From the NCBI GenBank assembly GCA_963790475.1, contig CAWBOS010000001.1:64001-128000 (forward strand): a stretch of 64,000 bases of DNA, read 5' to 3'. Position numbers and translations under genes: made by a program. This DNA is from an uncultured delta proteobacterium. GTDB taxonomy: Bacteria; Desulfobacterota; RBG-13-43-22. This document shows positions 41,469 through 54,633 of this stretch, one piece after another. The notes beneath the pieces are model-generated. The model did not search any database. It saw nothing but the letters and a program-made list of their open reading frames with translations, and was not told where the DNA came from. Within the stretch, counting starts at the first letter, position 1; every line of letters begins with the position of its first letter.

Positions 41469-41867
41469 ATGACAGCGCAGAAAGAAAAATCTCGTGGGGA
41501 AATCGTCCTTTACCAGGCACCGGATGGCAAGGTTGAGCTAACTATCCGACTTGAGCGGGAAAGCCTTTGGTTGAGCCAAAAACAAATGTCGTTGCTTTTT
41601 GATAAAGACACCGACACGATCAGTTTGCATATCCGTAATATATACAAAGAAGGTGAATTGGAAGAATCGGCAACTACCGAGGAATCCTCGGTAGTTCAAA
41701 AGGAGGGTAAAAGACAGGTCCGCCGTAATGTTCGCCTGTATAACCTCGATGCCGTTCTCTCAGTGGGTTACCGGGTCAACTCGAAGCGCGGCACTCAGTT
41801 TCGTATCTGGGCGAACAATGTTTTAAAAGAATATCTGGTAAGAGGTTTTGTCCTTCCATTACGCTGA
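41469..41867 (+). pseudogene. RhuM-family (virulence/Fic-associated) protein, 3'-truncated
   Basis: EIVLYQ, LWLSQKQM..LF, YNLDAVLSVGYRVNSKRGTQFRIWA; ends abruptly. Confidence 0.8.
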
Positions 41868-42155: not shown

Positions 42156-42536
42156 ATGTTAGGTAAGGAAGTGCGGCATTTCAAGGACTTGATGGTTTGG
42201 CAAAGGAGTCATCAATTATTTCTTGATGTTGTACGGGACATTGAGAGCTTCAAGAAAGATGTGGTTTTAAGAATAATAATTGATCAGATCATTAGAAGTA
42301 TAGGCTCGATAAGTTCAAACATCGCCGAGGGATTTAACTCAAGGACGACAAAGCAGTATTTGAGCTTTCTTGATATTGTCCGAAGGTCCGCAGCGGAAAG
42401 TGAAAACTGGTTTTATAAACTAAGGGATATCGGTCAATTGGAACAAGATAAAGCCGAAACGAGAATAAACGAATGTGTGAAAATAAATAAAATGCTTTAC
42501 GGCCTGATGAACAGTTTGAAGAAAAAAATTCACTAA
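42156..42536 (+). CDS. Four-helix-bundle protein (23S rRNA IVS protein / bAvd-like family)
   Basis: [38 protein letters not shown]. Confidence 0.9.
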
Positions 42537-44192: not shown

Positions 44193-44546
44193 ATGGAATT
44201 CAGTGTAGAATTTTATAAAACCAAATCGGGCGGTTGCCCTGTGCAGGAATTTTTAGATGATCTTAAGGAAAAGGACCCTGACGATTTTTCCATAATTCTT
44301 GCTGGGTTAGCCAAACTTCGCCGGAGGGATTATCACTGGCCGCCCTTATCAAAGCCAATAGGAGAAGAACTTTTTGAACTACGCCATGTAGGTAAGCTGA
44401 ACACCCGCGTCATCTATTTTTTTATGAAAGGTCGCAGGATCATTGCCGTCCACGGGATTCGGAATAAGGCAAGAAAGATTTCAGAATCAGATTTTAAGAT
44501 CGCCAAGTCGCGTAAAGAAGACTGGGAGAAGAGAAATTCGCGATGA
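44193..44546 (+). CDS. RelE/HigB-like type II toxin
   Basis: VEFYKT..G.CPVQEFL, SKPI..ELFELR, RVIYFF; toxin-first order. Confidence 0.85.
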   Translation: MEFSVEFYKTKSGGCPVQEFLDDLKEKDPDDFSIILAGLAKLRRRDYHWPPLSKPIGEELFELRHVGKLNTRVIYFFMKGRRIIAVHGIRNKARKISESDFKIAKSRKEDWEKRNSR

Positions 44547-44929
44547 AAAGAAAAACTAATTTTGATCGATACCTTGAGGAACAATTAAAAGATAAAGATT
44601 TTGCCGGTCGATTCAGAAAGGCCGGCCAGGCCTGGGATGTGGCCCTGCAATTGACCGCTTTGCGAAAAAAAGTCGGTCTGTCTCAGAAGGAGCTGGCTCA
44701 AAAAGTGGGAACCTCACAGCAGCAAATCAGCAGGCTGGAGTCCACTTCCTACGAGGGGCATTCCTTAAGCATGCTGCGCAGGGTGGTGGAAACCCTGGGA
44801 GCGACAGTCAAGGTGGAAATTGAGTACAAGAAGAGTCCAGAGCTGTTTCCCGTGGCTGAAAAAAAGGCTTCTTATGGAGTCAAGAAACCGGCTCATGGCC
44901 CTGCCAGTCAAGCAGACCAGATAGACTAA
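44543..44929 (+). CDS. HigA-like XRE antitoxin
   Basis: LRKKVGLSQKELAQKVGTSQQQISRLE; ATGA overlap with the toxin. Confidence 0.88.
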   Translation: MKRKTNFDRYLEEQLKDKDFAGRFRKAGQAWDVALQLTALRKKVGLSQKELAQKVGTSQQQISRLESTSYEGHSLSMLRRVVETLGATVKVEIEYKKSPELFPVAEKKASYGVKKPAHGPASQADQID

Positions 44930-44994
44930 ATGGACCTGATGGACAAAACAGACCATATGACCAAATAGACCAGATAATAACATTGGAGTTTAAT

Positions 44995-45151
44995 CCCTTG
45001 AACCCTGGAACGGCTCGGCTGAGCCTTTTCGATCAACTCAAGGCCCTGAGCGGACTCGACCTGAGCCGTTTCGAAAAACTCAAGGCCCTGAACATGTCGA
45101 AAGGCTCGCCGATGGTCATGTCGATGGGCTCGCCGCAAGCCCTTGAACCCT
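44995..45151. repeat. Nested TTCGA..CTCAAGGCCCTGA..TGTCGA repeat flanked by cccttgaaccct direct repeats
   Basis: Two copies of ttcga..aactcaaggccctga and two of catgtcga..ggctcgccg, arranged one inside the other. Confidence 0.7.
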
Positions 45152-45351
45152 GTTTTATCAAGCCTGGTCCGTGAAGCAAACCAATAAGACCCTATTTTTT
45201 AATCAAGAAAAGATGGGGTTTTTGTTTTGGAGTGGATGATAAAAGGGAGTAGGGTAATCGGGTAAAATCTAAACCAATCGGCCAAATGGGAGCAAATAAC
45301 TTGATTCAGAAAACTCATCCCTTGTCAAAGAGTGCATCATCGTATTAACGC

Positions 45352-46071
45352 ATGAAGTCTGATCGCATAAAAAACTGGCCGAAAGCAGAGCGGCCACGGG
45401 AAAGGCTGCTGGCCGAAGGGGCCGACAAGCTCACCGAGGCAGAGTTGCTTGCCATTATCTTACGCGTAGGGCAAGGCACGTTCAAGGAAGGTGTGTTGGG
45501 GCAGAATGCCTCCGATTTCGCCCGTACAATTCTGAAGGACTTTCATGGTCTCCGCGGACTGGATCGCGCTCACGTTCAGGATCTGCTGAAAGTGCCCGGC
45601 CTCGGACCCGCAAAAGTCGCTCAAATCAAAGCCGCTTTTGAACTCGGGAAAAAGGTCTGCGCTGGGAAACTGACAGTTCCTTCTTTCGAGTCCTCCCAAG
45701 CAATAGCCAACCACTTTCGCCCCCGTTTCAAGGGAAAACGCCAGGAGATAGTTACTGCCGTCTTTCTGAACGGACAGAACCAGCGTGTTGACGTAAAAGA
45801 CATCACCGAAGGGACCCCGACCCAAGCCACTGTCTATGTCCGCCGGGTCATTGAGGAAGCCCTCCGCCTCTCAGCGGCCGCGGTGGTTCTGGTCCACAAT
45901 CACCCGTCCGGCAATCCTGAACCCTCCGCCGGCGACGATGAAACTACGCGCGATCTGTTGAAGGCGTGCAAACTGGTCCAACTGGTCTTGCTCGATCACG
46001 TGATTGTCGGTGAGATCGAATATTACAGTTACTCTGACTCCGGTCGACTTAAGGAGCTTGAAAACGAGTAG
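45352..46071 (+). CDS. radC: RadC-family JAB-domain protein
   Basis: ERPRERLL, ELLAIILR, HhH GLGPAK, HNHPSG..PS..D, LLDHVIV. Confidence 0.93.
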   Translation: MKSDRIKNWPKAERPRERLLAEGADKLTEAELLAIILRVGQGTFKEGVLGQNASDFARTILKDFHGLRGLDRAHVQDLLKVPGLGPAKVAQIKAAFELGKKVCAGKLTVPSFESSQAIANHFRPRFKGKRQEIVTAVFLNGQNQRVDVKDITEGTPTQATVYVRRVIEEALRLSAAAVVLVHNHPSGNPEPSAGDDETTRDLLKACKLVQLVLLDHVIVGEIEYYSYSDSGRLKELENE

Positions 46072-46081
46072 AGGGAGATTT

Positions 46082-48331
46082 ATGGCTAAAAAGAAACTGG
46101 AACCCCAGCCCTATGTTAAACCGGACCAACTCCAGATCCGTGGTAACGAAATATTCAGCCCTATTCGCCAAAAATACGTGCCGCTAACACCCGAAGAAAG
46201 GGTGAGACAGGAGTTTCTTTTCGTCTTGATCAACGAATACGGTTATTCCCTAGATCAGATTGATGAAGAGACTCCGGTGACCAGCCGTGGTTCCGCACAA
46301 GCCCGCGCCGATTTTCTTATCTGGAGGACGCCCGACGCCAAGAAGCGACAGGAACACGCCTTGATAGTCATCGAATGCAAGGCTGACAACGTAACCATCT
46401 CCTTAAAAGACTATGTTCAGGGCGCTAACTATGCACAGTATGAACACGCACGGTTCTTTGTCACTCATAACCACCGCGAGACCAAATACTGGAAAGTGGA
46501 TGATAACCGGCGGATGCCGAACTATGATGAGATCGAGAACATACCCCATGCTGATGCAACAGACAAGGATATCACGGAATTACTGGCTCGTCTGAAGGTC
46601 TTCAAGGAGGACGAATTCGCCGATCTCCTCCATCAATGCCACAATGTCATCCGTAACCGAGAAAAAAAGGATCCTGCCGCTGCTTTTGACGAAATTGCAA
46701 AGATACTGTTCGTTAAAGTGGATATCGAGCGCCGCCTTCGCAAAGGAAAAGTCCGAAAGAATCTTTTCACTGCTGAATTCCTTGATGATCAGAGGGAATT
46801 ACATGATGATCCGATGAACGTCCTCTTCAAACAGACCAAAGAGGACTACAAAACAGATAAAATTTTCGATCCCGAGGAAACTATTAATCTGAAATTTAAC
46901 ACTGCCCGTGAAATCGTTAAGCTTCTGGAGAGATACAATCTTTCCGATACAAGTGAGGACATAAAAGGGATTGCTTTCGAGCGCTTTCTCGGAAGAACAT
47001 TCCGTGGAGATATTGGGCAATTCTTCACTCCCCGGACCATCGTTGAATTCATGGTTCGCATGTTGGATCCAAAGGAAGGCGATATTATTTGTGATCCTGC
47101 GAGTGGTTCTGGGGGTTTTTTAATCCGGTTTTTTGAAATTGTCCGTCAGCAAATCCTTGCTGATGCTGACCGCCAGTATCAGGAATTCAAGGTAGAAATC
47201 GAAGCAAAGTCAAATCTATCAAAAGAGAAGAAGGCGGAAATTCTTCGTAATAAATACGATGAGATCCAGGAAACATTGGATCCCCAAAGGCGAGGATCTC
47301 GACTTTGGAGCCTGGCCAACCAATATATTTTTGGCACAGATGCCAATGATCGTATGGCACGGACCAGTAAGATGAACATGATCATGCATGGAGATGGCCA
47401 CGGCGGTGTTCATCATCACGACGGGTTCATCAACGTCAACGGCATCTTCGAGGGCCGTTTTAATATCATTCTTACCAATCCTCCTTTTGGTTCCAGCGTC
47501 GAGGAGTCCGACATAATTCTTGAATCTGATACCACTACTGATGAAGAGGCAGAGCGCCTCTATAGTCGTGAGTTTGGTAAATTGTATTCTGAAGCCCAGG
47601 CCAAGGTAAGAGCCTCAAGAGGTAAGCCCATTGCTTCACTTTTCGAACTTTCAAAGGACAACAAAGGAAAAGTTGGCAAGGTCAAAACAGAGATTCTCTT
47701 CATTGAGCGATGTCTCTCATTATTAAAACCGGGAGGGAGGTTGGGAATTGTCCTACCTGAAGGGATATTCAATAACCCTTCGCTTGACTATGTTAGAGAA
47801 TTCTGTGAGGACCGCGCCTATATCAGAGCCGTTGTAAGCCTGCCACAAGAAACCTTTTTCTCAATTGGTGCCAGCGTGAAGGCCTCACTTCTTTTTATGC
47901 AGAAGTTCACCGAAAAAGAGAAGGCCGATCTCGATGCCAAGCAGGCCGAAGCCAACGTCGAGGTGAAGGCGAGGTATGACAACGCCATTACTAACGAGAC
48001 TGCGAGTCTGGAGTCGGCGATAGCGGCAGCCAAGGAAGCACGGGATACAGAAAAGCGAAAGATACTTCAAAAAGAATTGGCTGACTATGAGAAGCGGATG
48101 GCCGGGATCATCCTAAATGAAACCCGCGCCTTACTAAAAGAGAGATTTCCCTATCCTATCTTTCTCTACAAGGCCGAAAAGGTAGGTATTACCGCTACAG
48201 GGGAACAGGACCAAAACGAGCTGGTTCCCAACGATAACCAACCGTCGGGCATTATGAAGACGTGCATAGAGCTTTATCGGGAGTTCCGGCGCAATCCCAA
48301 GCAGTTCTTTTTGACGGAGGCAACAGAGTGA
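46082..48331 (+). CDS. Fused restriction endonuclease (HsdR_N-like) and N6-adenine DNA methyltransferase
   Basis: TPEERVRQ, ADF..VIECK (PD-D/ExK), GQFFTPR, DPASGSGGFL (motif I), NPPF (motif IV); start at the ATG after ggag. Confidence 0.9.
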   Translation: MAKKKLEPQPYVKPDQLQIRGNEIFSPIRQKYVPLTPEERVRQEFLFVLINEYGYSLDQIDEETPVTSRGSAQARADFLIWRTPDAKKRQEHALIVIECKADNVTISLKDYVQGANYAQYEHARFFVTHNHRETKYWKVDDNRRMPNYDEIENIPHADATDKDITELLARLKVFKEDEFADLLHQCHNVIRNREKKDPAAAFDEIAKILFVKVDIERRLRKGKVRKNLFTAEFLDDQRELHDDPMNVLFKQTKEDYKTDKIFDPEETINLKFNTAREIVKLLERYNLSDTSEDIKGIAFERFLGRTFRGDIGQFFTPRTIVEFMVRMLDPKEGDIICDPASGSGGFLIRFFEIVRQQILADADRQYQEFKVEIEAKSNLSKEKKAEILRNKYDEIQETLDPQRRGSRLWSLANQYIFGTDANDRMARTSKMNMIMHGDGHGGVHHHDGFINVNGIFEGRFNIILTNPPFGSSVEESDIILESDTTTDEEAERLYSREFGKLYSEAQAKVRASRGKPIASLFELSKDNKGKVGKVKTEILFIERCLSLLKPGGRLGIVLPEGIFNNPSLDYVREFCEDRAYIRAVVSLPQETFFSIGASVKASLLFMQKFTEKEKADLDAKQAEANVEVKARYDNAITNETASLESAIAAAKEARDTEKRKILQKELADYEKRMAGIILNETRALLKERFPYPIFLYKAEKVGITATGEQDQNELVPNDNQPSGIMKTCIELYREFRRNPKQFFLTEATE

Positions 48332-49710
48332 ATGCGACGCACACACCATCCCGCGCCTTTGCCGTTTGGTGGAAGGAATTCGATCGCTGGAGTGTAAGCT
48401 ATTTTCAATCTGGACGGTGGTATTGGCCACAGAGTCTTTTGAACCGTGTGGACGAATTTACGAAATCAGAAGCAATCCCAATCACGGTTAGTGAAGCTCA
48501 AAAACAGAATATCCCAATTATCTCGAAAATAAATTTCGGCGGCGAACTCTTCCTTCGCAATAGTAAAGATTACCCTAATTACAAAGGCCGTTTATTTCTG
48601 GTAAATCCTAATCGTTTTATCTTTTCCAAGATAAACGCGAAGCGTGGTTGTATTTACTATTCGCCAGAAAACCAGAAACCGTTTGCTGTGAGTTCAGAGT
48701 ATCCAGTTTTAAAGTTAGATACCAAAAAGATTTTAGGCGATTACTTTAATCTGGCTATGCGTGTGGGCCCTGCTCGTGAGGGCTTGGTCGGCTCCGCTGC
48801 TGGTATGGCAAAAGCCCGGACTAATCTTGAAGATTTTAAGAATATTCAAATACCACTTCTTTCGCTGGCCGAGCAAAAGGCCATTGTCTCACGCTGGCGA
48901 AAAGCGCAGGACGAAATCGCCGCCGTCCGTGATCGCGTGAAAAAGCGAAAATCAACGATTGATGTTCGGTTCTTAGGTGACTTGGGCTTGCGGTCGCCCG
49001 CACAAGGTTCTATACCCAAAGCCTTTGCTGTTTGGTGGCAAGATTTTCTCCGTTGGGGGGTCGGTTTCAATTTCCTTTGCCAGAGCGGTGCTGATCTGAC
49101 GCGAGGCAAGTATCCAGTTTTCGAACTAGGTGCGCTCCTCGAATTAATTCAATACGGAACAAGCGAAAAGGCAAACACTAACGCCGATGGCGTAGCAGTT
49201 ATTCGAATGAATAATATTCTTGATGGCGAACTCGATCTCAGAAATCTTAAACATCTACAGCTTTCCAAGAATGAGAGAGAAAGACTGCTTTTGAAGGATG
49301 GAGACATACTTTTCAATCGCACGAACAGCAAAGAACTAGTCGGAAAATGTGCCGTGTTTCATGCTCAGGGGGAATACGTCTTCGCTTCCTACCTTATTCG
49401 TATTCGAGCGGATTCCTCCAAAGCTAATCCCGATTTCTTAGCCTACGTTATTAACTGTCCAATCGGCCGGCAACAAATCAACGCTCTCAGTCGACAGATT
49501 ATCGGGCAGGCCAACGTCAATAGTGTTGAACTTCGCGGCCTGCAAATTCCACTCCCACCGCTAAGCGTGCAAAAACAAATCATGGAACGGGTGGCGGCGG
49601 GGCGTGCCGAAATCGCCCGCGAGCGAGAAGCCGCTGACCACCTCGACCAAGAAATCAAAGCTGAAATCGAAGCCCTGATTTTAGGCACGAAGAAAGTGAG
49701 TGATTTATGA
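48328..49710 (+). CDS. HsdS-like specificity subunit (two TRDs)
   Basis: GTGA overlap; duplicated conserved regions (AFAVWW twice; IPLLSLAEQKAI / IPLPPLSVQKQI); GDILFNRTNS. Confidence 0.9.
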   Translation: MNATHTPSRAFAVWWKEFDRWSVSYFQSGRWYWPQSLLNRVDEFTKSEAIPITVSEAQKQNIPIISKINFGGELFLRNSKDYPNYKGRLFLVNPNRFIFSKINAKRGCIYYSPENQKPFAVSSEYPVLKLDTKKILGDYFNLAMRVGPAREGLVGSAAGMAKARTNLEDFKNIQIPLLSLAEQKAIVSRWRKAQDEIAAVRDRVKKRKSTIDVRFLGDLGLRSPAQGSIPKAFAVWWQDFLRWGVGFNFLCQSGADLTRGKYPVFELGALLELIQYGTSEKANTNADGVAVIRMNNILDGELDLRNLKHLQLSKNERERLLLKDGDILFNRTNSKELVGKCAVFHAQGEYVFASYLIRIRADSSKANPDFLAYVINCPIGRQQINALSRQIIGQANVNSVELRGLQIPLPPLSVQKQIMERVAAGRAEIAREREAADHLDQEIKAEIEALILGTKKVSDL

Positions 49711-51263
49711 GCCGCGGAAGACAAAAGGTGTCATTTGAGGGTCTCTTGCAGGAGAACGTCCTTGGAACTTTTGCTGTGATACGCGGCTTTGCTGAACTAC
49801 GCGACCTCATCGATGTTTCCATAGCAATGCCTTACCAGGGCGCCATGAACGGTCAGGGCACCGGCTATCAGAGACAATTTGATGAGCAACACGTTGAAGA
49901 CCTTAAACGGTTCTTAAGCAAGGGCCGCTACCGTTTCTTCCCCGAGATAGTCCTCAGCCTCAGAAGTAAAGGGGCGACTGATCCCATAGTCTCGTATACC
50001 AAGAAGAGATCATCATTAAATGACAAAACCTACGGGATCTCCGTGGGGCTCAAGGCACTACGCAAGGATGGCTTCACAAGGATTCACAGGATTGACGGTA
50101 ACCACCGTTTGGAGGCAGCCAAACGGCTGTTAGAAGAGCAGAAGAGGTCTGCTTCTTTCAAAGATTTCACCAAAGCCCCTTTCTGCTTTGTCATCTTGAA
50201 CTCGGATAGGCAGGAGGATGACGAGTTGGCCGAAGCCATGCTTTTTAATCTGATTAACAGTAAGGCTCTGCCTATCGCTTCAGAACATAGCCTTTCGGTT
50301 CTGATGCGCGATGACGGCGCTGCCACCGAACGATTCGTTGAGGACCCTCAAGTGTATCTGACGCGTTGGATACACGACAAAGTCAAAGACTGGCCTGAGG
50401 CCTTTTATACCGCAATGGGGGAAACGCCCCTGTCTCGTATACATTCTACAGCAGGGGTGCTGCTTCGCCCCGGTGGAATATCAAACGAAACCCAGCAAAG
50501 CATGGAGACCGAAGCGGGGCACCTTTTCAGCCCCCTTTACGACTTGGTCGTAAGGCTCCGCGATGAACATTTGAAATTTGTTCACTCTTATGCATATCTA
50601 CCTGTCGCAGCCGAAGTTTATGTACGCCACTCCAAAGTCGATTCTGCAAAAGGGGCCAACACAGAAGCGGAGCGACTCCGTCGTGCGGAACGCTGGCTCC
50701 GTGACTTTGCCCGCTGGTTTGATACTGTCGGAGGTACGGACATGCCTTTGCCAGCCGATCCCTCCATTCTCTGGACTATTTTCAAGCGTGATTTTGACAA
50801 ACGAGCAGGGAAGGTCTTCGTTGCTATGTCATTTAGGCGCGAACGGGATTTTCAGGATGTAGGAATGGCAATTGATGAGGCGCTAGACCAGTTCAATACG
50901 GAGCACCCAAACACACCTCTCGCACCAAGGCGCGCGGACAAACAAAAAGGCGCGAGCTATGAAATTCCGGCCTGGATATTCTCAGAAATCGATCAGAGTC
51001 GATTGGTCATTGCAGACCTGACTGATGAGAGGCCGAACGTCTACTGTGAAGTGGGTTATGCTAAATCGAAAGGAATTCCTTTTATCCTGACCTTCCATAA
51101 AAGAAACCCTGATGACAAACCACCATGGGACCGAGAATCATCACCCGGCAATAAGGTTCATTTTGATCTAACACCCTATCGTTATATTGCATATGAGACT
51201 GCATTCGAACTGCGAGATAAGCTAAAACAGGAACTTAACGCTTTTGTTGAGCGAGCATTATAA
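49707..51263 (+). CDS. DGQHR (DndB/ParB-like) domain fused to a C-terminal nucleoside deoxyribosyltransferase/TIR-like domain
   Basis: N-terminal GYQR, FFPEIVL, IDGNHRL, LFNLINSK; C-terminal VFVAMSF, RAD, IADLT..RPNVYCEVGYA, FD. Confidence 0.8.
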   Translation: MSRGRQKVSFEGLLQENVLGTFAVIRGFAELRDLIDVSIAMPYQGAMNGQGTGYQRQFDEQHVEDLKRFLSKGRYRFFPEIVLSLRSKGATDPIVSYTKKRSSLNDKTYGISVGLKALRKDGFTRIHRIDGNHRLEAAKRLLEEQKRSASFKDFTKAPFCFVILNSDRQEDDELAEAMLFNLINSKALPIASEHSLSVLMRDDGAATERFVEDPQVYLTRWIHDKVKDWPEAFYTAMGETPLSRIHSTAGVLLRPGGISNETQQSMETEAGHLFSPLYDLVVRLRDEHLKFVHSYAYLPVAAEVYVRHSKVDSAKGANTEAERLRRAERWLRDFARWFDTVGGTDMPLPADPSILWTIFKRDFDKRAGKVFVAMSFRRERDFQDVGMAIDEALDQFNTEHPNTPLAPRRADKQKGASYEIPAWIFSEIDQSRLVIADLTDERPNVYCEVGYAKSKGIPFILTFHKRNPDDKPPWDRESSPGNKVHFDLTPYRYIAYETAFELRDKLKQELNAFVERAL

Positions 51264-51396
51264 GTCGCCTAAATATTAATGTTGGCCTTTGATGAGAATA
51301 AACATCCCCTTCAAAAAGATAGGAGTAAGTTTCTTTAGAATAACTACAACTAACAATCCAATTTTCGATTTTACATAAATATTTTACGGGGGAAAA

Positions 51397-52425
51397 TTGA
51401 TGGGCAAGTCTGAACCAATTTTTTGGGGTATTCATGCCGGTCGAGCCGGCGAAGCAGACAACCTTTTTTTGAAAAAAGATGTCATAGCTGTTGGCTGGCA
51501 TAAGATAAAAAACATGGGAAAAATACCACCTGACAGGGAAGCCTTTAAAACTAAAATCGTTGAGGCTTATCCTGAGACAAAACCAGGTGCAATTCCAATA
51601 TTTGCAGGTATGTTATTAAGGTTTGTTCATGAGATAAAAGAGGGAGATGTTGTTATTTATCCTTCCAAACGTGATCGGCAAATTCATATCGGAATTGTAA
51701 ATGGTCCTTATAAATACGATCCAAAAGATGAACCGACCTTTCCTCATCATAGACCAATTAAATGGTTGAAAACAGTATCTCGGACCAAATTTTCTCAGGG
51801 GGCGCTTTATGAAATCGGGTCAGCCATAAGCCTTTTCCAGGTAAAGACTTATTCAGAGGAATTTAAAGGAGCTTTAGAAGGAAAACCGGCTATTATTTCT
51901 CCCCCCACTAAAGATGAGGCCGTGGCTATTATTGCCAAAGAAATTGAGCAAAATACCAGGGATTTTATTTTGAAACAACTTGCTCAGGAATTAAAAGGCC
52001 ATTCTCTAGCGGAATTTATAGCCCATTTACTCGGAACAATGGGATACCGATCTCGCTTATCGCCCCCCGGCCCAGACCATGGTATTGATATAGTAGCTCA
52101 CAAGGACGAATTAGGCTTTGAACCACCAATCATAAAAGTTCAAGTGAAAAGTAGTGAGGGAAGCGTTGGGGAGCCAGTTGCCTCAGCTCTATATGGCAAC
52201 GTGGGAGAAAAAGAATTTGGGTTACTGGTTGCTTTGGGAACCTTTACCGCGCAAGCTCGGAACTTCGCCCAGAGTAAAAGCAATTTGCGTTTAATCGACG
52301 GGGAAGAACTAGTTTCTCTTATTCTCCAACACTATGATCAATTTGACTCAAGATATAAAGGGCTTTTGCCTTTAAAACGTGTACATGTGCCTGAGCCCTT
52401 AGATGAAGAAGGGAATAACGGGTAA
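51397..52425 (+). CDS. Mrr-family restriction endonuclease
   Basis: N-terminal WGIHAG..GW..EGDVVIYP domain; C-terminal PDHGIDI, VQVK, LIDGEEL. Confidence 0.85.
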   Translation: MMGKSEPIFWGIHAGRAGEADNLFLKKDVIAVGWHKIKNMGKIPPDREAFKTKIVEAYPETKPGAIPIFAGMLLRFVHEIKEGDVVIYPSKRDRQIHIGIVNGPYKYDPKDEPTFPHHRPIKWLKTVSRTKFSQGALYEIGSAISLFQVKTYSEEFKGALEGKPAIISPPTKDEAVAIIAKEIEQNTRDFILKQLAQELKGHSLAEFIAHLLGTMGYRSRLSPPGPDHGIDIVAHKDELGFEPPIIKVQVKSSEGSVGEPVASALYGNVGEKEFGLLVALGTFTAQARNFAQSKSNLRLIDGEELVSLILQHYDQFDSRYKGLLPLKRVHVPEPLDEEGNNG

Positions 52426-52456
52426 AAGTGTGTTCAAGGCGTCCTATAAAATATAA

Positions 52457-53460
52457 CTGGGGTATTCACTTGACTAAGGTTACCCCAACATATAGTAATG
52501 GGGCGTGGAATCGTACCCCAAAAGTTTGACTGAATTTTAGTCTTGGTTTTCTTCGGAACAAGATTGTCGAGACTACCTTTATCGTTTGAGATGGCCGGAA
52601 GGCTTTATCTGTCCACGATGTGGGAACCCGGAAGCCTGGCCAATTGGTACTATGTTGTTCGAGTGTTCCGGTTGCCACTATCAGTTGTCGGTTGTAGCGG
52701 GAACAATTTTTCAAGATACCCACAAGCCGTTGATGGTGTGGTTTAGGGCGATATGGTGGGTAACTGGACAAAAAAATGGAGCCAGCGCTCTGGGCCTTAA
52801 ACGCATCCTTGGTCTGGGAAGCTATCGCACGGCCTGGACCTGGTTGCACAAACTGCGTCGGGCCATGGTCCGTCCTGACCGGGACTGCTTGTCTGGTATT
52901 ATTGAAGTAGATGAAACCGTTATTGGCGGAGAGAAACCTGGTAAACGAGGTCGTGGGGCGGCCGGTAAGGTACTCGTAGGTATCGCAGTCGAAGACAAGG
53001 GAGATGACGGCGTTGGGCGAATTCGTCTTGGTATTCTTCCGGATGCCTCTGCAAACAGTCTCAACGCCTTTATTAAGGAAAGAGTCACGGGAGGAAGTAC
53101 CATTCGAACCGACGATTGGCTTGGCTACAGCAAATTGGATTCTGTTGGTTATCGGCACGTCACTATTAAAAATACTGAATTGAAGCTTGCTCACTTGGTA
53201 GTATCTCTTCTGAAACGTTGGCTTCTGGGTACCCATCAAGGTGCAGTCAGTCATGAGCATTTAGCCTACTATTTGGATGAGTATGTTTTTAGATTCAATC
53301 GCCGAACTTCGACTCACCGCGGCAAATTATTTATGCGCCTCCTGGAAAATGCTGTACAAATCGGACCGGTCACCCAATGTCAGATCATTCAGCATGTTAG
53401 AGGACGCAAACCCAAAGAACACAACATATAGGGAATACCTTAGTCAAGTGAATACCCCAG
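52457..53460 (+). mobile_element. IS1595-family element with perfect 24-bp TIRs and an 8-bp duplication
   Basis: ctggggtattcacttgactaaggt / accttagtcaagtgaataccccag, with aaatataa on both flanks. Confidence 0.93.
52505..53431 (+). pseudogene. IS1595 transposase with an in-frame TAG at codon 12
   Basis: GTG at 52505 gives VESYPKSLTEF*SWFSSEQDCRDYLYRLRWPEGFICPRC; also Zn ribbon, EVDET, TD, YLDEYVFRFNRR. Confidence 0.85.
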
Positions 53461-53550: not shown

Positions 53551-54633
53551 ATGATGGGAGAATTGGGAATGGCATCAAAACCAGTTTTTATAAGTCACGC
53601 AGTACTTAACAAGGGGCTTGCTGACAAGTTGGTTGACCTGATTGAAACTGGGATAGGTATTTCTGCTTCTGATATATTTTGTTCCTCTTTGGAAGGGCTT
53701 GGGATAGATAGTGGAACAAATTTTATTGATTTCATACATAAGCAAATAAGTAAACCCAAAGTGGTAATATTACTTTTAACTCCCGAATATTTTAACAGCA
53801 ATTTCTGCCTATGCGAATTAGGAGCATCTTGGATTCTTTCACACAGAATTATTCCCTTACTTGTTTCACCATTGGAATATTCTGATGTTAAGGCAGTTCT
53901 TACTGGAATACAACTTCTTAACATAGATCGTAAATCTGACCTAAATCAAATGCTCGACGAACTGACTTCTGTTCTTCAGAAAGAGGGAAAACCTTTTGCT
54001 CGTTGGGAGGTCAAACGTGACAAATTCCTTGAAGAGATGTCTGGTTATCTAGCGACTTACAAGCCATCTAAAAAAATATCACAAAATGAATTTGAAAATA
54101 TTAAAAAAAAATATAATGAGGCAGTTGAAGAAATAAAATTAATGCAAAAAGAAATCGAGAAAAAGAATGATTTAATTGAAAAATTAAAACGAGCCAAGGA
54201 TTCCAATGCGGTAAAACAGATAGTCTTTGAAAATGTCAAATTTGAGGACTATTTTGATGAGCTTTTAGAAAAAGGACAAAAATCTATTATGAATTTATCC
54301 TATATCGTCAAGGAAGCCTTATATTATCATTATCGAGGTGAAAGATTACCAATACCAAGGTTTGGTGAAGATGATATAAGAGACCAAATTAAATATGCTA
54401 TCGAATTAGATTTTCTAAAAGAATATGAAGATGGGATCGATTTGGTTTACGATGACCCAAAAATTTCCAATGCAATAACTGCTCTCGATGAAATTCAACA
54501 ATTTTTGTCGAAGGTTGAGGAAGACGGAGAACTGGAAAAAGATGGAAAAGAATTTTTAGAATATTATGTCGACAGGTATCAACATAAACCCACATTAGCT
54601 TCAAGGCGTTTTTGGCAAACACACTTTAATTGA
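53551..54633 (+). CDS. TIR-domain protein with coiled coil
   Basis: VFISHA, IFCSS, SNFCLCELGASW (catalytic-type Glu); visibly AT-rich; the start may be 53569. Confidence 0.85.
   Translation: MMGELGMASKPVFISHAVLNKGLADKLVDLIETGIGISASDIFCSSLEGLGIDSGTNFIDFIHKQISKPKVVILLLTPEYFNSNFCLCELGASWILSHRIIPLLVSPLEYSDVKAVLTGIQLLNIDRKSDLNQMLDELTSVLQKEGKPFARWEVKRDKFLEEMSGYLATYKPSKKISQNEFENIKKKYNEAVEEIKLMQKEIEKKNDLIEKLKRAKDSNAVKQIVFENVKFEDYFDELLEKGQKSIMNLSYIVKEALYYHYRGERLPIPRFGEDDIRDQIKYAIELDFLKEYEDGIDLVYDDPKISNAITALDEIQQFLSKVEEDGELEKDGKEFLEYYVDRYQHKPTLASRRFWQTHFN

What the first reader, a model, noticed from the sequence alone, without database searches (positions are those of the whole stretch)
45352..51263. 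DGQHR(ParB/DndB-like)-NDT fusion translationally coupled to a helicase-less RM operon: candidate new anti-phage system
Seen: radC, REase-MTase, the S subunit and a 518-aa gene form one tight operon (10-bp gap, GTGA and ATGA overlaps). The last protein has DGQHR-family landmarks (QR, FP.I.L, a variant DGNHR, F..IN.K) and a C-terminal Rossmann-like domain (VFVAMSF / IADLT..PNVY.EVGYA). Known: DGQHR domains belong to the ParB-like nucleotide-binding superfamily (DndB, DUF262), NDT/TIR-like domains are nucleotide-cleaving effectors, and RM operons can carry back-up 'guard' effectors such as PrrC. Inference: a nucleotide- or DNA-sensing switch that triggers nucleotide depletion when the RM complex is inhibited. 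I do not recognise this architecture as a named system.
Basis: partly seen in the sequence, partly recalled or inferred. Interest (0 to 1): 0.85.

Follow-up and report, generated by a model that had tools for sequence, protein, structure and literature searches.

The report
Restriction-operon ParB-like N-glycosidase accessory gene
The last gene of this restriction-modification operon encodes an unnamed protein that joins a ParB/DndB-like nucleotide-switch domain to a base-sugar-bond-cleaving domain; relatives almost always sit behind the same kind of restriction enzyme, so it is probably an undescribed add-on anti-phage effector.

Summary
radC, a nuclease-methyltransferase fusion (REMT), an S subunit and a 518-aa gene lie head to tail, with a 10-bp gap and GTGA and ATGA overlaps.

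The 518-aa protein has a DGQHR/DndB/ParB-like N-domain and an NDT/MilB/DNPH1/TIR-like C-domain. Sequence matches are all below curated cut-offs. The C-domain fold match is clear (Z 12-13), and the family's invariant Glu aligns with the NDT/DNPH1 catalytic Glu.

The RM part is an ordinary BsaXI-like Type IIB design, so no helicase is expected.

New information:
- After de-duplication, 44 of 45 related loci with enough upstream DNA carry REMT upstream and 57 of 63 an S gene. This includes a clade only 27-34% identical.
- REMT+S also occurs without this gene, with Fic, PRTase or BrnT genes next in line.
- RadC is facultative (20 of 33).

So the gene depends on the RM module, not the reverse. Best reading (0.42): a PrrC-style back-up N-glycosidase effector. 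Main rival (0.25): a DNA-directed glycosylase.

I found no paper or PADLOC model for it. Seven earlier notes of this scan describe the same family.

The parts
45352..46071 (+). radC (UPF0758 N-terminal HhH domain plus RadC/JAB domain, JAMM-type motif HNHPSGNPEPSAGD); first gene of the operon here, facultative in relatives
   Evidence: Pfam RadC 4.5e-37 and UPF0758_N 1.4e-24. NCBIfam NF000642 scores 207 bits against a cut-off of 180. It is one of 3 RadC copies in the genome. Upstream of REMT in 20 of 33 related loci with at least 4.3 kb upstream, and also in REMT+S loci that lack the 518-aa gene (L132, L133, L138).
46082..48331 (+). REMT: N-terminal HsdR_N-type PD-(D/E)xK nuclease domain fused to a gamma-class N6-adenine methyltransferase (749 aa); RM subunit of a BsaXI-like Type IIB enzyme
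   Evidence: Pfam HSDR_N_2 7.1e-22 and N6_Mtase 2.6e-34. PADLOC MTase_I PDLC03018 3.2e-227. Best solved relative is RM.BsaXI 8w0p, 5.3e-26. The nuclease motif aDF...(V/I)ECK is kept in all 30 aligned REMTs, and NPPFG is present in the window's REMT.
48328..49710 (+). S subunit (two target-recognition domains, 460 aa from GTG 48328); hypervariable among relatives
   Evidence: Pfam Methylase_S 4.5e-16. PADLOC Specificity_I PDLC03148 2.3e-71. 17-48% identity to S proteins of related loci whose REMTs are 60-79% identical.
49707..51263 (+). 518-aa DGNHR-NDT protein, the subject of the finding
   Evidence: Translation. 195 relatives. 1014 cluster representatives at E<=1e-3. AlphaFold2 model with mean pLDDT 82.5.
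49707..50276 (+). N-terminal ParB/Srx-fold, DGQHR/DndB-like domain (about aa 1-190) with QR, FPE, RIDGNHRL and FxxIN motifs
   Evidence: TIGR03187 3.3e-8, 33.6 bits against cut-off 58.85. PF14072 9.3e-4, and 17 of 40 family members match it. PADLOC DpdB matches 14 of 40. Best fold matches of this part are ParB-N Z 6.3, sulfiredoxin 6.1, PadC 5.9, KorB 5.5 and SspE 5.2, all weak. ParB-CTP chains rank in Foldseek.
50094..50108 (+). DGNHR pentapeptide (aa 130-134), the family's version of the DGQHR/DGQQR/GERR nucleotide-binding box
   Evidence: Invariant in 40 of 40 sequences.
50277..50801 (+). Middle all-helical domain (about aa 191-365) of unknown role; invariant W337
   Evidence: Secondary structure. 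Only weak matches to small helical bundles (Z 5-6).
50802..51263 (+). C-terminal NDT/MilB/DNPH1/TIR-like flavodoxin-fold N-glycosidase domain (aa 366-518)
   Evidence: VIA-align: MilB Z 13.3, NDTs Z 12.6-11.7, TIRs about 11. Foldseek: MilB 6.1e-4. PF05014 matches 14 of 40 members, best 7e-9. PADLOC 'TIR effector' PDLC00733 matches 34 of 40 members.
51048..51050 (+). Codon of Glu448, the predicted catalytic nucleophile
   Evidence: Invariant with N444, V445 and G450. Aligned by HMMER to the Glu of ...GYELG... in Rcl/DNPH1 and ...FEVG... in the T. brucei NDT. That this Glu is the nucleophile in those enzymes is established knowledge, cited in PMC3710099, passages seen.
51397..52425 (+). Neighbour, probably a separate unit: DUF8426 plus Mrr_cat nuclease (PADLOC candidate PDC-S02); recurrent but facultative neighbour of the family
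   Evidence: Mrr_cat 1.6e-23. PDC-S02 3.7e-134. DUF8426 is a lead from the Atlas. An AT-rich spacer of 133 bases lies before it. The same family is directly downstream in 3 of 37 surveyed loci and overlaps or abuts the gene in 2 of 4 distant members, L087 and L088.

Best explanation
The locus is a horizontally spreading defence cassette. Its core is three translationally coupled genes:
- a nuclease-methyltransferase fusion (REMT);
- its S subunit; REMT and S together form a self-sufficient BsaXI-like Type IIB restriction-modification enzyme;
- a dedicated accessory protein.

In the accessory protein, a ParB/DndB-type nucleotide-binding and DNA-sensing switch (RIDGNHRL box) controls an NDT/MilB/TIR-type N-glycosidase domain with catalytic Glu448. 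radC is an optional fourth gene.

Shown:
- the anatomy of the locus;
- the two folds;
- invariant active-site-like residues in both domains;
- near-obligate, order-conserved linkage of the gene to REMT+S, while REMT+S can exist without it.

Inferred: the accessory protein is a second-line, PrrC-style effector that depends on the RM complex or on what that complex does to DNA.
- It stays silent in the uninfected cell.
- When restriction is blocked or overwhelmed, the ParB-like switch, loaded with an NTP and/or DNA, releases the glycosidase.
- The glycosidase then cleaves a base-sugar bond in an abundant nucleotide. NAD(P)+ or (d)NMPs are the most likely substrates.
- This stops phage replication at the cost of the cell.
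For: 1. Coupling in the window: a 10-bp gap, then GTGA and ATGA overlaps.

2. Coupling is conserved in 27 complete trios (not de-duplicated):
- The S to third-gene spacing is -4 in 10 of 11 clade-i trios.
- It is 0 to +3 in 15 of 16 clade-ii trios.

3. Linkage. 86 loci collapse to 74 groups at 97% nt identity. Counting only loci with enough upstream DNA:
- REMT lies upstream in 23 of 24 close and 21 of 21 distant-clade loci.
- S lies upstream in 37 of 41 close and 20 of 22 distant-clade loci.
- The distant clade is only 27-34% identical in this protein, while its REMT stays 60-69% identical.

4. Deeper relatives on viral-collection contigs keep the same partners in other orders:
- L089: REMT-like (29% identical), then DGNHR-NDT, then S.
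- L091: REMT-like, S, a TIR gene, then DGNHR-NDT.
- L088: DGNHR-NDT follows a sigma70 plus S-type TRD fusion.

5. Asymmetry. REMT orthologues were found in 11 of 401 genomes of the phylum sample.
- Three carry an intact third gene: G000, G327, G166.
- Two carry broken or cut copies: G360, G264.
- In one (G316) the REMT is only partly matched (residues 1-234) and no S or DGNHR-NDT match was found downstream.
- In the other five, the genes that follow S are Fic (G318), RhuM-Fic (G140), PRTase (G161), BrnT (G241) and unknown genes (G135).
- The loci without the gene are nested among bearing lineages in a quick REMT tree.
- The REMT nuclease motif is intact in all 30 aligned REMTs.
- So the RM works alone, and the slot after S holds exchangeable toxin-type genes.

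6. Both halves look catalytically alive. Invariant residues in 40 sequences 21-88% identical are Q55, R56, E80, R128, D130, N132, H133, R134, F180, W337, F371, N444, V445, E448 and G450.

7. E448 aligns with the nucleophile Glu of DNPH1/Rcl and NDT. The C-domain fold matches MilB at Z 13.3 and NDTs at Z 12.6-11.7.

8. Precedents:
- The NDT-like N-glycosidase effector of Retron-Eco1 hydrolyses NAD(P)+ (PMC12673091, passages).
- NDT domains were predicted as toxin modules of Abi-type proteins (PMC3710099, passages).
- PrrC within the EcoprrI hsd locus is recalled knowledge and comes from no call.

9. Setting and distribution:
- The setting is a defence island with a Gp49/HTH pair, a PDC-S02 Mrr nuclease, an IS1595 transposase and an SpbK-like TIR gene, at lower G+C than the flanks.
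- Distribution is sporadic: two-domain matches in 5 of 401 genomes of the own phylum, 3 of them intact, plus an N-domain-only match and a C-terminal fragment, and 1 of 351 genomes in a second phylum, that one being the centre genome itself.
Against: - No experiment or expression data exist.
- Every sequence match of the protein to a named family is below the curated cut-off. The ParB-fold matches are weak: Z 5-6, and Foldseek E >= 0.01 for the N-part alone.
- Nothing in the data says what triggers the protein or what it cleaves. The best fold matches (MilB, NDT, DNPH1, TIR) are tied within about 2 Z units and act on different substrates.
- A ParB/DndB-type DNA-binding domain and the tight tie to a DNA-specificity system fit a DNA substrate at least as naturally as a soluble one.
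- Partner clades i and ii are mixed on the REMT tree (L072, L076, L079). That tree is a quick one whose careful search did not finish. The mixing argues against a highly co-adapted protein interface.
- The linkage survey covers only two of about four sequence clades. These were the 80 best of 441 metagenome relatives, chosen by likeness to this protein, and kin share ancestry. One distant member (L087) shows no RM gene in the 800 bases available upstream.
- Fic, BrnT and PRTase genes after S may be independent island cargo and not functional equivalents.
Confidence: 0.42

Rival explanations
1. The protein is a DNA-directed N-glycosidase, a second restriction arm. The ParB-like domain loads on DNA, possibly gated by an NTP as in ParB, GmrSD or SspE. 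The NDT-like domain removes bases from DNA that the (RM)2S complex marks as foreign, or from hypermodified phage DNA that escapes the methylation-based enzyme. The resulting abasic sites and breaks act directly, without cell suicide.
For: - DGQHR/DUF262-type domains are DNA-acting modules. DUF262 proteins sit in Type I RM loci (PMC3632139, passage).
- The GmrSD-like TgvAB pair embedded in a V. cholerae Type I RM operon restricts phages with hypermodified DNA (10.1101/2024.04.04.588119, abstract and section 11).
- SspE appears among the N-domain fold matches at Z 5.2.
- The top C-domain matches, MilB (including an entry in complex with hmCMP) and DNPH1 (some entries titled 5-hydroxymethyl-dUMP N-hydrolase), act on 5-hydroxymethyl-pyrimidine nucleotides by their PDB titles.
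- NDT domains were proposed to deglycosylate DNA (PMC3710099).
- The gene is strictly tied to a DNA-specificity module.
- Mrr-type nuclease genes abut the gene in L087 and L088 and follow it in the window, L013 and L066.
Against: - REMT keeps its own intact nuclease motif in all 30 aligned REMTs, so a second DNA-damaging activity is not needed for restriction.
- No solved member of the NDT/MilB/DNPH1 group in the hit lists is named as acting on polymeric DNA.
- The Z scores of MilB, NDT and TIR are too close to read a substrate from them.
- The Mrr neighbour is present in only 3 of 37 surveyed loci.
Confidence: 0.25
2. The protein is a regulator or helper of DNA modification and not an effector. 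It could act as a DndB-like repressor or timer of the RM operon. It could also act as a DpdB-like NTPase whose NDT domain exchanges a base in DNA, giving a second, non-methyl modification.
For: - The N-domain's nearest named families are DndB (17 of 40 members) and DpdB (14 of 40).
- DndB regulates the dnd operon (PMC4507180, search listing only).
- NDT enzymes catalyse base exchange on deoxyribose (established enzymology; PMC7308715 abstract in the listing).
Against: - All matches to DndB and DpdB are far below cut-off: NF041060 scores 12.6 bits against 300.
- No dnd, dpd or base-precursor genes are in the window region.
- A mere regulator would not need an invariant catalytic-type Glu and the N444/G450 set.
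- REMT+S lineages lose the gene and persist. That is unexpected if the gene controlled a lethal nuclease or made the protective mark.
Confidence: 0.1
3. The protein is an independent single-gene defence system (sensor plus effector in one chain) that merely hitch-hikes behind REMT+S as island cargo. The linkage would reflect common descent of a successful mobile cassette, not functional dependence.
For: - The slot after S also holds unrelated cargo: Fic, PRTase, BrnT.
- L087 and L088 show full-length members without a REMT gene in view.
- Many defence proteins with a sensor domain and a TIR/NDT-type effector work alone (general knowledge).
- TgvAB is found 17 times more often outside RM operons than inside.
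Against: - Linkage survives divergence to 27-34% identity with S turned over completely.
- It also survives a change of gene order in L089.
- Start and stop codons stay overlapped or 0-3 bases apart.
- Only 1 of 45 informative loci lacks REMT.
- L088 still pairs the gene with an S-type TRD protein.
Confidence: 0.1

Closest known systems
PrrC with EcoprrI (anticodon nuclease encoded inside a Type Ic hsd locus); recalled knowledge, not from a call
   Same: An effector gene sits inside a restriction-modification operon. It has two parts, an NTP-binding regulatory domain and a destructive enzymatic domain. It is linked to the RM genes, whereas the RM type exists widely without it.
   Different: There is no homology. 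PrrC has an ABC-type NTPase and a tRNA anticodon nuclease, and its partner RM has an HsdR motor. Here the parts are a ParB/DndB-like domain, an NDT-like N-glycosidase and a motor-less Type IIB-like enzyme. Masking by the RM complex and a phage trigger are unproven here.
GmrSD / BrxU / SspE family, and TgvAB embedded in the V. cholerae VPI-2 Type I RM operon (10.1101/2024.04.04.588119)
   Same: An N-terminal ParB-fold domain carries a DGQ(Q/H)R-type box with QR and FxxxN motifs (PMC4619093), fused to a C-terminal damaging enzyme. TgvAB lies inside an RM operon. SspE is among the N-domain fold matches.
   Different: The effector is an NDT/TIR-fold glycosidase, not a DUF1524/HNH nuclease. Pfam GmrSD_N matches only 1 of 40 members. 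TgvAB is mostly found away from RM genes, 1744 hits against 102. This family is with REMT in 44 of 45 loci.
DndB / DpdB / DGQHR-domain proteins (PF14072, TIGR03187, NF041060)
   Same: These are the nearest named sequence families of the N-domain. QR, the pentapeptide box and FxxxN are all present.
   Different: The box reads DGNHR in all 40 members. Scores are below every curated cut-off. There are no dnd or dpd genes nearby, and there is an extra helical domain and an NDT-like domain.
NDT / DNPH1 (Rcl) / MilB-BcmB N-glycosidases, bacterial TIR NADases and the Retron-Eco1 N-glycosidase effector
   Same: The flavodoxin-like fold is shared (Z 13.3-10). The conserved Glu is at the nucleophile position. 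The Retron-Eco1 effector shows that this fold serves as an NAD(P)+-hydrolysing anti-phage effector (PMC12673091).
   Different: PF05014 is below cut-off in the window protein (18.7 bits against 28.8). Pfam TIR models match 0 of 40 members. The fusion to a ParB-like domain and the tie to RM are not features of those enzymes. The substrate is unknown.
BsaXI / BcgI Type IIB restriction-modification enzymes, (RM)2S (PMC11997821)
   Same: For the two upstream genes: a PD-(D/E)xK nuclease and an N6A methyltransferase in one chain plus a separate two-TRD S subunit, with no motor. RM.BsaXI is the best solved match, 5.3e-26.
   Different: The match covers only the methyltransferase part (residues 177-613). 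Cleavage on both sides of the site is untested. PADLOC files the family under Type I methyltransferases. BsaXI has no third subunit in the abstract read.
MADS (methylation-associated defence system, mad1-mad8)
   Same: REMT resembles MAD2 and S resembles MAD5.
   Different: Both are far below the NCBIfam cut-offs (286 against 720 bits; 29 against 400). None of the ATPase, nuclease or kinase modules of the eight-gene operon (PMC13662399, passage) is present.

Membership tests
DGQHR / DndB domain (TIGR03187, PF14072) | Score at or above the curated cut-off of the family model | tested here: not met
   TIGR03187 scores 33.6 bits against 58.85 (E 3.3e-8). PF14072 scores 18.8 against 29.1. 17 of 40 family members match PF14072 at E<=0.01, best 6.5e-6.
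DGQHR / DndB domain (TIGR03187, PF14072) | QR pair, nearly invariant DGQHR pentapeptide and FxxxN motif (as listed in PMC4619093) | tested here: inconclusive
   QR (Q55, R56) and FxxIN (F180, N184) are present and conserved. The pentapeptide is DGNHR, with Asn in place of Gln, in 40 of 40 sequences.
ParB / sulfiredoxin fold | Fold of the N-terminal domain | tested here: inconclusive
   All best matches that cover residues 17-189 are ParB/Srx-fold proteins, but they are weak: Z 6.3-5.2, Foldseek E 0.012-0.8 for the N-part alone and 2.4e-3 for the whole model.
Nucleoside 2-deoxyribosyltransferase / DNPH1 / MilB superfamily (PF05014) | Pfam gathering score | tested here: not met
   18.7 bits against 28.8. 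14 of 40 members match at E<=0.01, best 7e-9.
Nucleoside 2-deoxyribosyltransferase / DNPH1 / MilB superfamily (PF05014) | Flavodoxin-like fold with the nucleophile Glu after the third strand | tested here: met
   MilB Z 13.3 (rmsd 3.0, 130 aligned). NDTs Z 12.6-11.7. Invariant E448 aligns with the Glu of Rcl and of the T. brucei NDT. The structure is a prediction (pLDDT 82.5).
TIR domain NADases | Match to TIR family models and TIR fold | tested here: inconclusive
   Pfam TIR models match 0 of 40 members. PADLOC 'TIR effector' PDLC00733 matches 34 of 40 members, but in the window protein only over about 48 residues around the Glu motif. TIR structures score Z 10-11, just below the NDTs.
GmrSD / BrxU / SspE (DUF262 + DUF1524) | C-terminal HNH (DUF1524) nuclease domain | tested here: not met
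   No such match in Pfam or PADLOC. The C-domain is NDT-like.
PrrC-like RM-dependent back-up effector (functional class) | Encoded within, and evolutionarily dependent on, an RM operon | tested here: met
   REMT is upstream in 44 of 45 informative loci. REMT+S is found without the gene in 5 genomes of the phylum sample.
PrrC-like RM-dependent back-up effector (functional class) | Kept silent by the RM complex and released by a phage anti-restriction factor; abortive infection | not testable with these tools
   This needs genetics and biochemistry.
Type IIB restriction-modification (BsaXI/BcgI) | Nuclease and methyltransferase in one chain plus a separate S subunit, no motor | tested here: met
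   No ResIII helicase match falls inside the window; the nearest on the contig is more than 100 kb away.
Type IIB restriction-modification (BsaXI/BcgI) | Cleavage on both sides of a bipartite site | not testable with these tools
   This is an enzymatic property.
Type I restriction-modification | HsdR subunit with an SF2 motor | tested here: not met
   The PF04851 search of the whole genome gave 31 matches, none in the window region C1:64001-128000.
MADS | MAD2 and MAD5 equivalog scores and the other mad genes | tested here: not met
   286 bits against 720, and 28.9 against 400. The neighbours are unrelated.

The most novel reading that the evidence does not exclude
The third protein is a new kind of restriction subunit: an NTP-gated, ParB-like DNA clamp that carries an NDT-fold DNA N-glycosidase. 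The S/REMT complex, or hypermodified bases, recruit it to foreign DNA, and it destroys that DNA by base excision instead of phosphodiester cleavage. That would be restriction by deglycosylation, coupled to a methylation-based self mark. It would also be the first NDT/DNPH1-fold enzyme shown to act on polymeric DNA.
Probability: 0.2. Interest if true: 0.85.

Novelty: new variant of a known kind. Interest (0 to 1): 0.62.

Why it matters
Restriction-modification systems are the commonest bacterial defence, and phages routinely evade them. A dedicated, widely spread third component would add to the few known cases, such as PrrC, of a built-in second line behind restriction. The family has 258 cluster representatives at E<=1e-10 and occurs in several phyla.

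It would also give a function to an unnamed family that pairs a ParB-type nucleotide switch with an N-glycosidase. This links two themes of current immunity research: CTP/NTP-gated ParB-like switches, and NAD+ or nucleotide depletion by TIR/NDT-fold enzymes.

The cassette is small (three genes, about 5.2 kb) and directly testable in E. coli.

Tried and rejected
- Complex prediction of the S subunit (A2) with the 518-aa protein (A1): no answer, score 0.00. This is neither for nor against binding. REMT could not be included because of the size limit.
- RNA evidence: no RNA holder listed. Only 3 DNA metagenome runs hold part of the stretch.
- Promoter and terminator scan of 44800-52600: 9 and 12 sites against 8.4 and 9.2 in shuffles, so uninformative.
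- tRNA scan of the window: none.
- A docking motif in S: the conserved C-terminal E(I/V)E..(M/L)ILG tail is also present in S proteins of loci that lack the gene, so it is not partner-specific.
- Third-slot proteins of L134 (448 aa) and L135 (417 aa) compared with the family profile: no relation, hhalign probability below 1%.
- Foldseek of the N-terminal 365 residues alone: nothing at E<=1e-3. The middle helical domain gave only weak AAA-lid-like matches.
- MADS and classical Type I were considered and rejected.
- Plasmid collection: 2 records.
  - One is a Leisingera 'N-6 DNA methylase' in which the N-terminal half of a methyltransferase runs straight into RIDGNHRL...NDT (26% identity, E 2e-18). 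I read it as a deletion chimera like L033, so at most weak support for linkage in a further clade.
  - The other (Leptospira) matched only the NDT-like C-domain and was not followed up.
- Clades iii and iv of the family (for example P0164, P0188-P0268) could not be surveyed for context.
- A first call with 'of' set to a locus id was an input error. It was corrected through a handles search.
- Literature: 0 papers for DGQHR plus deoxyribosyltransferase, and nothing relevant. Supplementary tables of recent large defence screens (for example PMC13069673 and PMC13092281, seen in the listing only) could hold this family, and I could not see them. DefenseFinder was not available.

Full report
**1. 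What is in the window**

Four ORFs lie head to tail on the + strand.
- radC is 45352-46071.
- The nuclease-methyltransferase fusion, here called REMT, is 46082-48331.
- The S subunit is 48328-49710.
- The 518-aa gene is 49707-51263.

- Ten bases holding AGGGAG separate radC from the ATG of REMT.
- GTG 48328 overlaps the REMT stop codon.
- ATG 49707 overlaps the S stop codon.

An AT-rich spacer of 133 bases follows the 518-aa gene, before a DUF8426 plus Mrr_cat gene at 51397-52425.

The stretch from about 39 kb to 56 kb has lower G+C than its flanks, 0.33-0.53 against about 0.54. Besides the operon it holds:
- a RhuM fragment;
- a 23S-IVP gene;
- an rve-like gene;
- a Gp49/HTH pair;
- an IS1595 transposase;
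- an SpbK-like TIR gene.

It is a defence island. The window is G000:C1:64001-128000 of a 6.3-Mb assembly.

**2. The RM part is ordinary**

- REMT has an HSDR_N_2 nuclease domain (7.1e-22) and an N6_Mtase domain (2.6e-34).
- Its best solved relative is RM.BsaXI (8w0p, 5.3e-26, residues 177-613).
- BsaXI is a Type IIB enzyme, an (RM)2S heterotrimer with a canonical PD-(D/E)xK site in the N-terminal domain of the RM chain (PMC11997821, abstract).
- The motif aDF...(V/I)ECK is kept in all 30 REMTs I aligned.
- A whole-genome search for ResIII helicases gave 31 matches, none inside the window.

So 'helicase-less' is expected for this design. MADS was considered because REMT and S resemble MAD2 and MAD5. 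The scores are far below the NCBIfam cut-offs, 286 against 720 bits and 29 against 400, and no other mad-type gene is near.

**3. The 518-aa protein**

Sequence matches are all sub-threshold but consistent.
- TIGR03187 DGQHR: 3.3e-8, residues 48-209.
- PF14072 DndB: 9.3e-4.
- PF05014 NDT: 0.002, residues 381-464.
- PADLOC 'TIR effector' PDLC00733: 6e-9 over residues 419-466.

Across 40 family members, the matches are:

| Model | Members matching (of 40) |
|---|---|
| DndB (PF14072) | 17 |
| NDT (PF05014) | 14 |
| Pfam TIR models | 0 |
| GmrSD_N | 1 |
| PADLOC PDLC00733 | 34 |
| PADLOC DpdB | 14 |

There is no full-length PADLOC model.

In an alignment of 40 sequences 21-88% identical, the invariant residues are G12, R26, S38, Q55, R56, E80, R128, D130, N132, H133, R134, F180, W337, F371, N444, V445, E448 and G450. 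So RIDGNHRL is the family's own box and not a variant of one member. Both halves keep active-site-like residues.

A profile search of solved structures aligns E448 with the Glu of Rcl/DNPH1 and of the T. brucei NDT (E 0.007-0.012).

The AlphaFold2 model (pLDDT 82.5, pTM 0.63) gives three parts.
- **Residues 367-518.** These match MilB (Z 13.3), several NDTs (12.6-11.7) and TIR domains (about 11). Foldseek puts MilB first at 6.1e-4.
- **The N-part.** I modelled residues 1-365 alone (pLDDT 81). Residues 17-189 find only ParB/Srx-fold proteins as their best matches: ParB-N 6.3, sulfiredoxin 6.1, PadC 5.9, KorB 5.5, SspE 5.2. These Z values are weak, and Foldseek found nothing at E<=1e-3.
- **The middle helical domain**, residues 191-365, has no convincing match.

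**4. The family and where it sits**

The word-index search returned 195 proteins. The 120 listed are 62-88% identical to the query and mostly full-length. They come from metagenomes and MAGs labelled Binatia, Terriglobia, Deltaproteobacteria and Lentisphaerae, among others. Their names are only 'hypothetical protein' or 'nucleoside 2-deoxyribosyltransferase'. The exhaustive search found 1014 cluster representatives at E<=1e-3, 258 at 1e-10 and 37 at 1e-30. Many are 470-560 aa and match over both domains.

I fetched 6 genome loci and the best 80 of 441 metagenome relatives, and searched them with the window's proteins. After collapsing to 74 groups at 97% nt identity and counting only loci with enough flanking DNA:

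| Neighbour | Close clade | Distant clade |
|---|---|---|
| REMT upstream | 23 of 24 | 21 of 21 |
| S upstream | 37 of 41 | 20 of 22 |
| RadC upstream | 14 of 16 | 6 of 17 |
| Mrr-type gene just downstream | 2 of 25 | 1 of 12 |

The misses for S fall into three groups.
- L012, L019 and L049 have under 500 bases upstream.
- L058, L066 and L083 have room for an S gene that tblastn did not detect.
- L006 and L033 are deletion remnants.

The one REMT miss counted is L054.

The distant clade is 27-34% identical to the window protein (nearest A1 members P0133 and P0142), while its REMT is 60-69% identical. S is only 17-48% identical to the window's S, as expected for changing specificities.

In 27 complete trios, the S to third-gene spacing is -4 in 10 of 11 clade-i loci and 0 to +3 in 15 of 16 clade-ii loci.

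**5. Deeper relatives**

Four full-length members lie on contigs of the viral collection.
- L089: a REMT-like gene (29% identical), then DGNHR-NDT, then S.
- L091: REMT-like, S, a TIR gene, then DGNHR-NDT (603 aa).
- L088: an RdRP-like gene, a 280-aa gene, a sigma70 plus S-type-TRD fusion, DGNHR-NDT, then an overlapping Mrr-type gene.
- L087: a Ymh (HEPN) gene, DGNHR-NDT, then an abutting Mrr-type gene. Only 800 bases are available upstream.

The other 38 loci hold no two-domain member. 37 hold only NDT-like domains in shorter proteins, and L101 holds only the N-terminal DGNHR part.

Two further clades (iii and iv of alignment A1) remain unsurveyed.

**6. The reverse question**

I sampled 401 genomes of the window's phylum.

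The family profile hits 16 genomes at E<=1e-20, but most of these are C-domain-only proteins.
- Intact two-domain matches: G000, G327, G166.
- In pieces: G360, G203.
- A C-terminal fragment only: G384.
- N-domain only: G264.

REMT orthologues (63-79% identical) are in 11 genomes.
- Three have the intact third gene.
- G360 is broken.
- G264 has a 182-aa N-domain remnant followed by an unrelated 417-aa gene.
- G316 matches only REMT residues 1-234, and no S or DGNHR-NDT match lies downstream.
- Five have other genes next after S: Fic (G318), RhuM-Fic plus Fic-like_C (G140), a PRTase (G161), BrnT (G241), and unknown genes of 448 and 340 aa plus a 1208-aa gene (G135).

In a quick REMT tree, whose careful search did not finish, these loci are nested among lineages that carry the gene. 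Clade-i and clade-ii partners are clustered but mixed.

In a second phylum, only the centre genome itself, 1 of 351, has the gene. The gene is therefore rare, patchy and mobile. It depends on REMT+S, and REMT+S does not depend on it.

**7. Mechanism**

Shown:
- a self-sufficient Type IIB-like RM module;
- a dedicated, translationally coupled third gene whose two domains both keep catalytic-type residues.

Inferred: the third protein is an accessory effector. I prefer the back-up (PrrC-like) reading at 0.42, for four reasons.
- The dependence is one-way.
- The slot after S is otherwise filled by toxin-type genes.
- The architecture is a nucleotide-binding switch plus a destructive enzyme.
- An NDT-fold effector that hydrolyses NAD(P)+ is already known in Retron-Eco1 (PMC12673091, passages).

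The main rival, at 0.25, is a DNA-directed glycosylase. It is favoured by four observations.
- The N-domain family has a DNA-acting character.
- TgvAB, a GmrSD-like pair embedded in a Type I operon, targets hypermodified phages.
- The top fold matches act on hydroxymethyl-pyrimidine nucleotides.
- Mrr-type nucleases recur as neighbours.

Regulatory or modification roles (0.10) and mere hitch-hiking (0.10) are less likely. The reasons are given under the rival explanations.

**8. Novelty**

I found no paper that describes this architecture.
- DGQHR plus deoxyribosyltransferase: 0 papers.
- ParB-like plus NDT plus restriction: only the HEPN survey, which mentions NDT as a predicted toxin domain in other fusions.
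- Neither the Pfam accession search nor the DGNHR search gave anything relevant.

Seven earlier notes of this scan on other genomes describe the same family with the same reading. Others describe the BsaXI-like pair and its Mrr neighbours. They are AI notes and not independent evidence, and I read them after my own survey.

The logic (an RM system with a linked effector; a ParB-like domain plus an effector) is known. This domain combination and its obligate tie to a Type IIB-like enzyme appear undescribed, so I rate it a new variant of a known kind.

Noticed in passing
window 51397-52425 (+); also L087:2281-3294, L088:9511-10587, L013, L066, L057: A DUF8426 plus Mrr_cat nuclease (PADLOC candidate PDC-S02, 3.7e-134) follows the operon. 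The same family abuts or overlaps distant DGNHR-NDT genes in L087 and L088 and lies next to the cassette in a few other loci, but in only 3 of 37 surveyed loci. It may be a facultative partner.
   Followed up: partly
L088:2138-7985: Upstream of a distant DGNHR-NDT gene lie a 1016-aa protein with a weak match to eukaryotic-type RNA-dependent RNA polymerase (PF05183, 4.8e-10), a 280-aa gene, and a 649-aa fusion of sigma-70 regions 2 and 4 with a Type I S-subunit TRD. This is an odd set of genes.
   Followed up: no
L142 (plasmid NZ_CP109788.1) 5789-8032; L033:6799-9380: Chimeric ORFs in which the N-terminal half of an N6-methyltransferase (up to NPPF) or of REMT runs directly into the RIDGNHRL...NDT part. 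They look like repeated deletions that remove S and the start of the third gene.
   Followed up: partly
G000:C10:1552172-1553128 (L130:997-1953) and G000:C10:1546590-1547378 (L131:1411-2199): Two further proteins of the same genome (318 and 262 aa) carry only the NDT-like domain (profile E 5.4e-15 and 2.6e-13). The first lies just before a 1123-aa ResIII helicase gene. Similar 300-340-aa NDT-only proteins occur in about 9 other genomes of the phylum sample.
   Followed up: partly
window 53551-54633 (+): A 360-aa protein with an N-terminal TIR_2 domain (1.9e-10) resembling SpbK (PADLOC 4.3e-27). It is separated from the operon by an IS1595 transposase gene (52586-53431).
   Followed up: no
window 44193-44929 (+): A Gp49-like (DUF891) toxin-type gene and an XRE-type HTH gene overlap by 4 bases. 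This is a likely toxin-antitoxin pair just upstream of the operon.
   Followed up: no
window 41469-41867 (+) and 42156-42536 (+): A truncated RhuM-family gene (132 aa, against a 252-position profile; PADLOC PDC-S05) and a 23S-rRNA-intervening-sequence-type four-helix protein. Both are typical island debris.
   Followed up: no
L134:1126-7285 (-): In a genome whose REMT+S lacks the third gene, S is followed by unknown genes of 448 and 340 aa and a 1208-aa protein with a weak family-B DNA polymerase match (8.7e-5).
   Followed up: no
L091:6346-7134: A 262-aa TIR_2 protein is inserted between S and a 603-aa DGNHR-NDT gene. It is 27% identical to the N-part of the window's own TIR protein at 53551-54633.
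   Followed up: no
G000:C13:9172-9531 and G000:C6:590256-590600: The genome has three RadC/JAB genes. The one in the window is therefore probably island cargo and not the only housekeeping copy. The C6 copy lies within 10-17 kb of two ResIII helicase genes.
   Followed up: no
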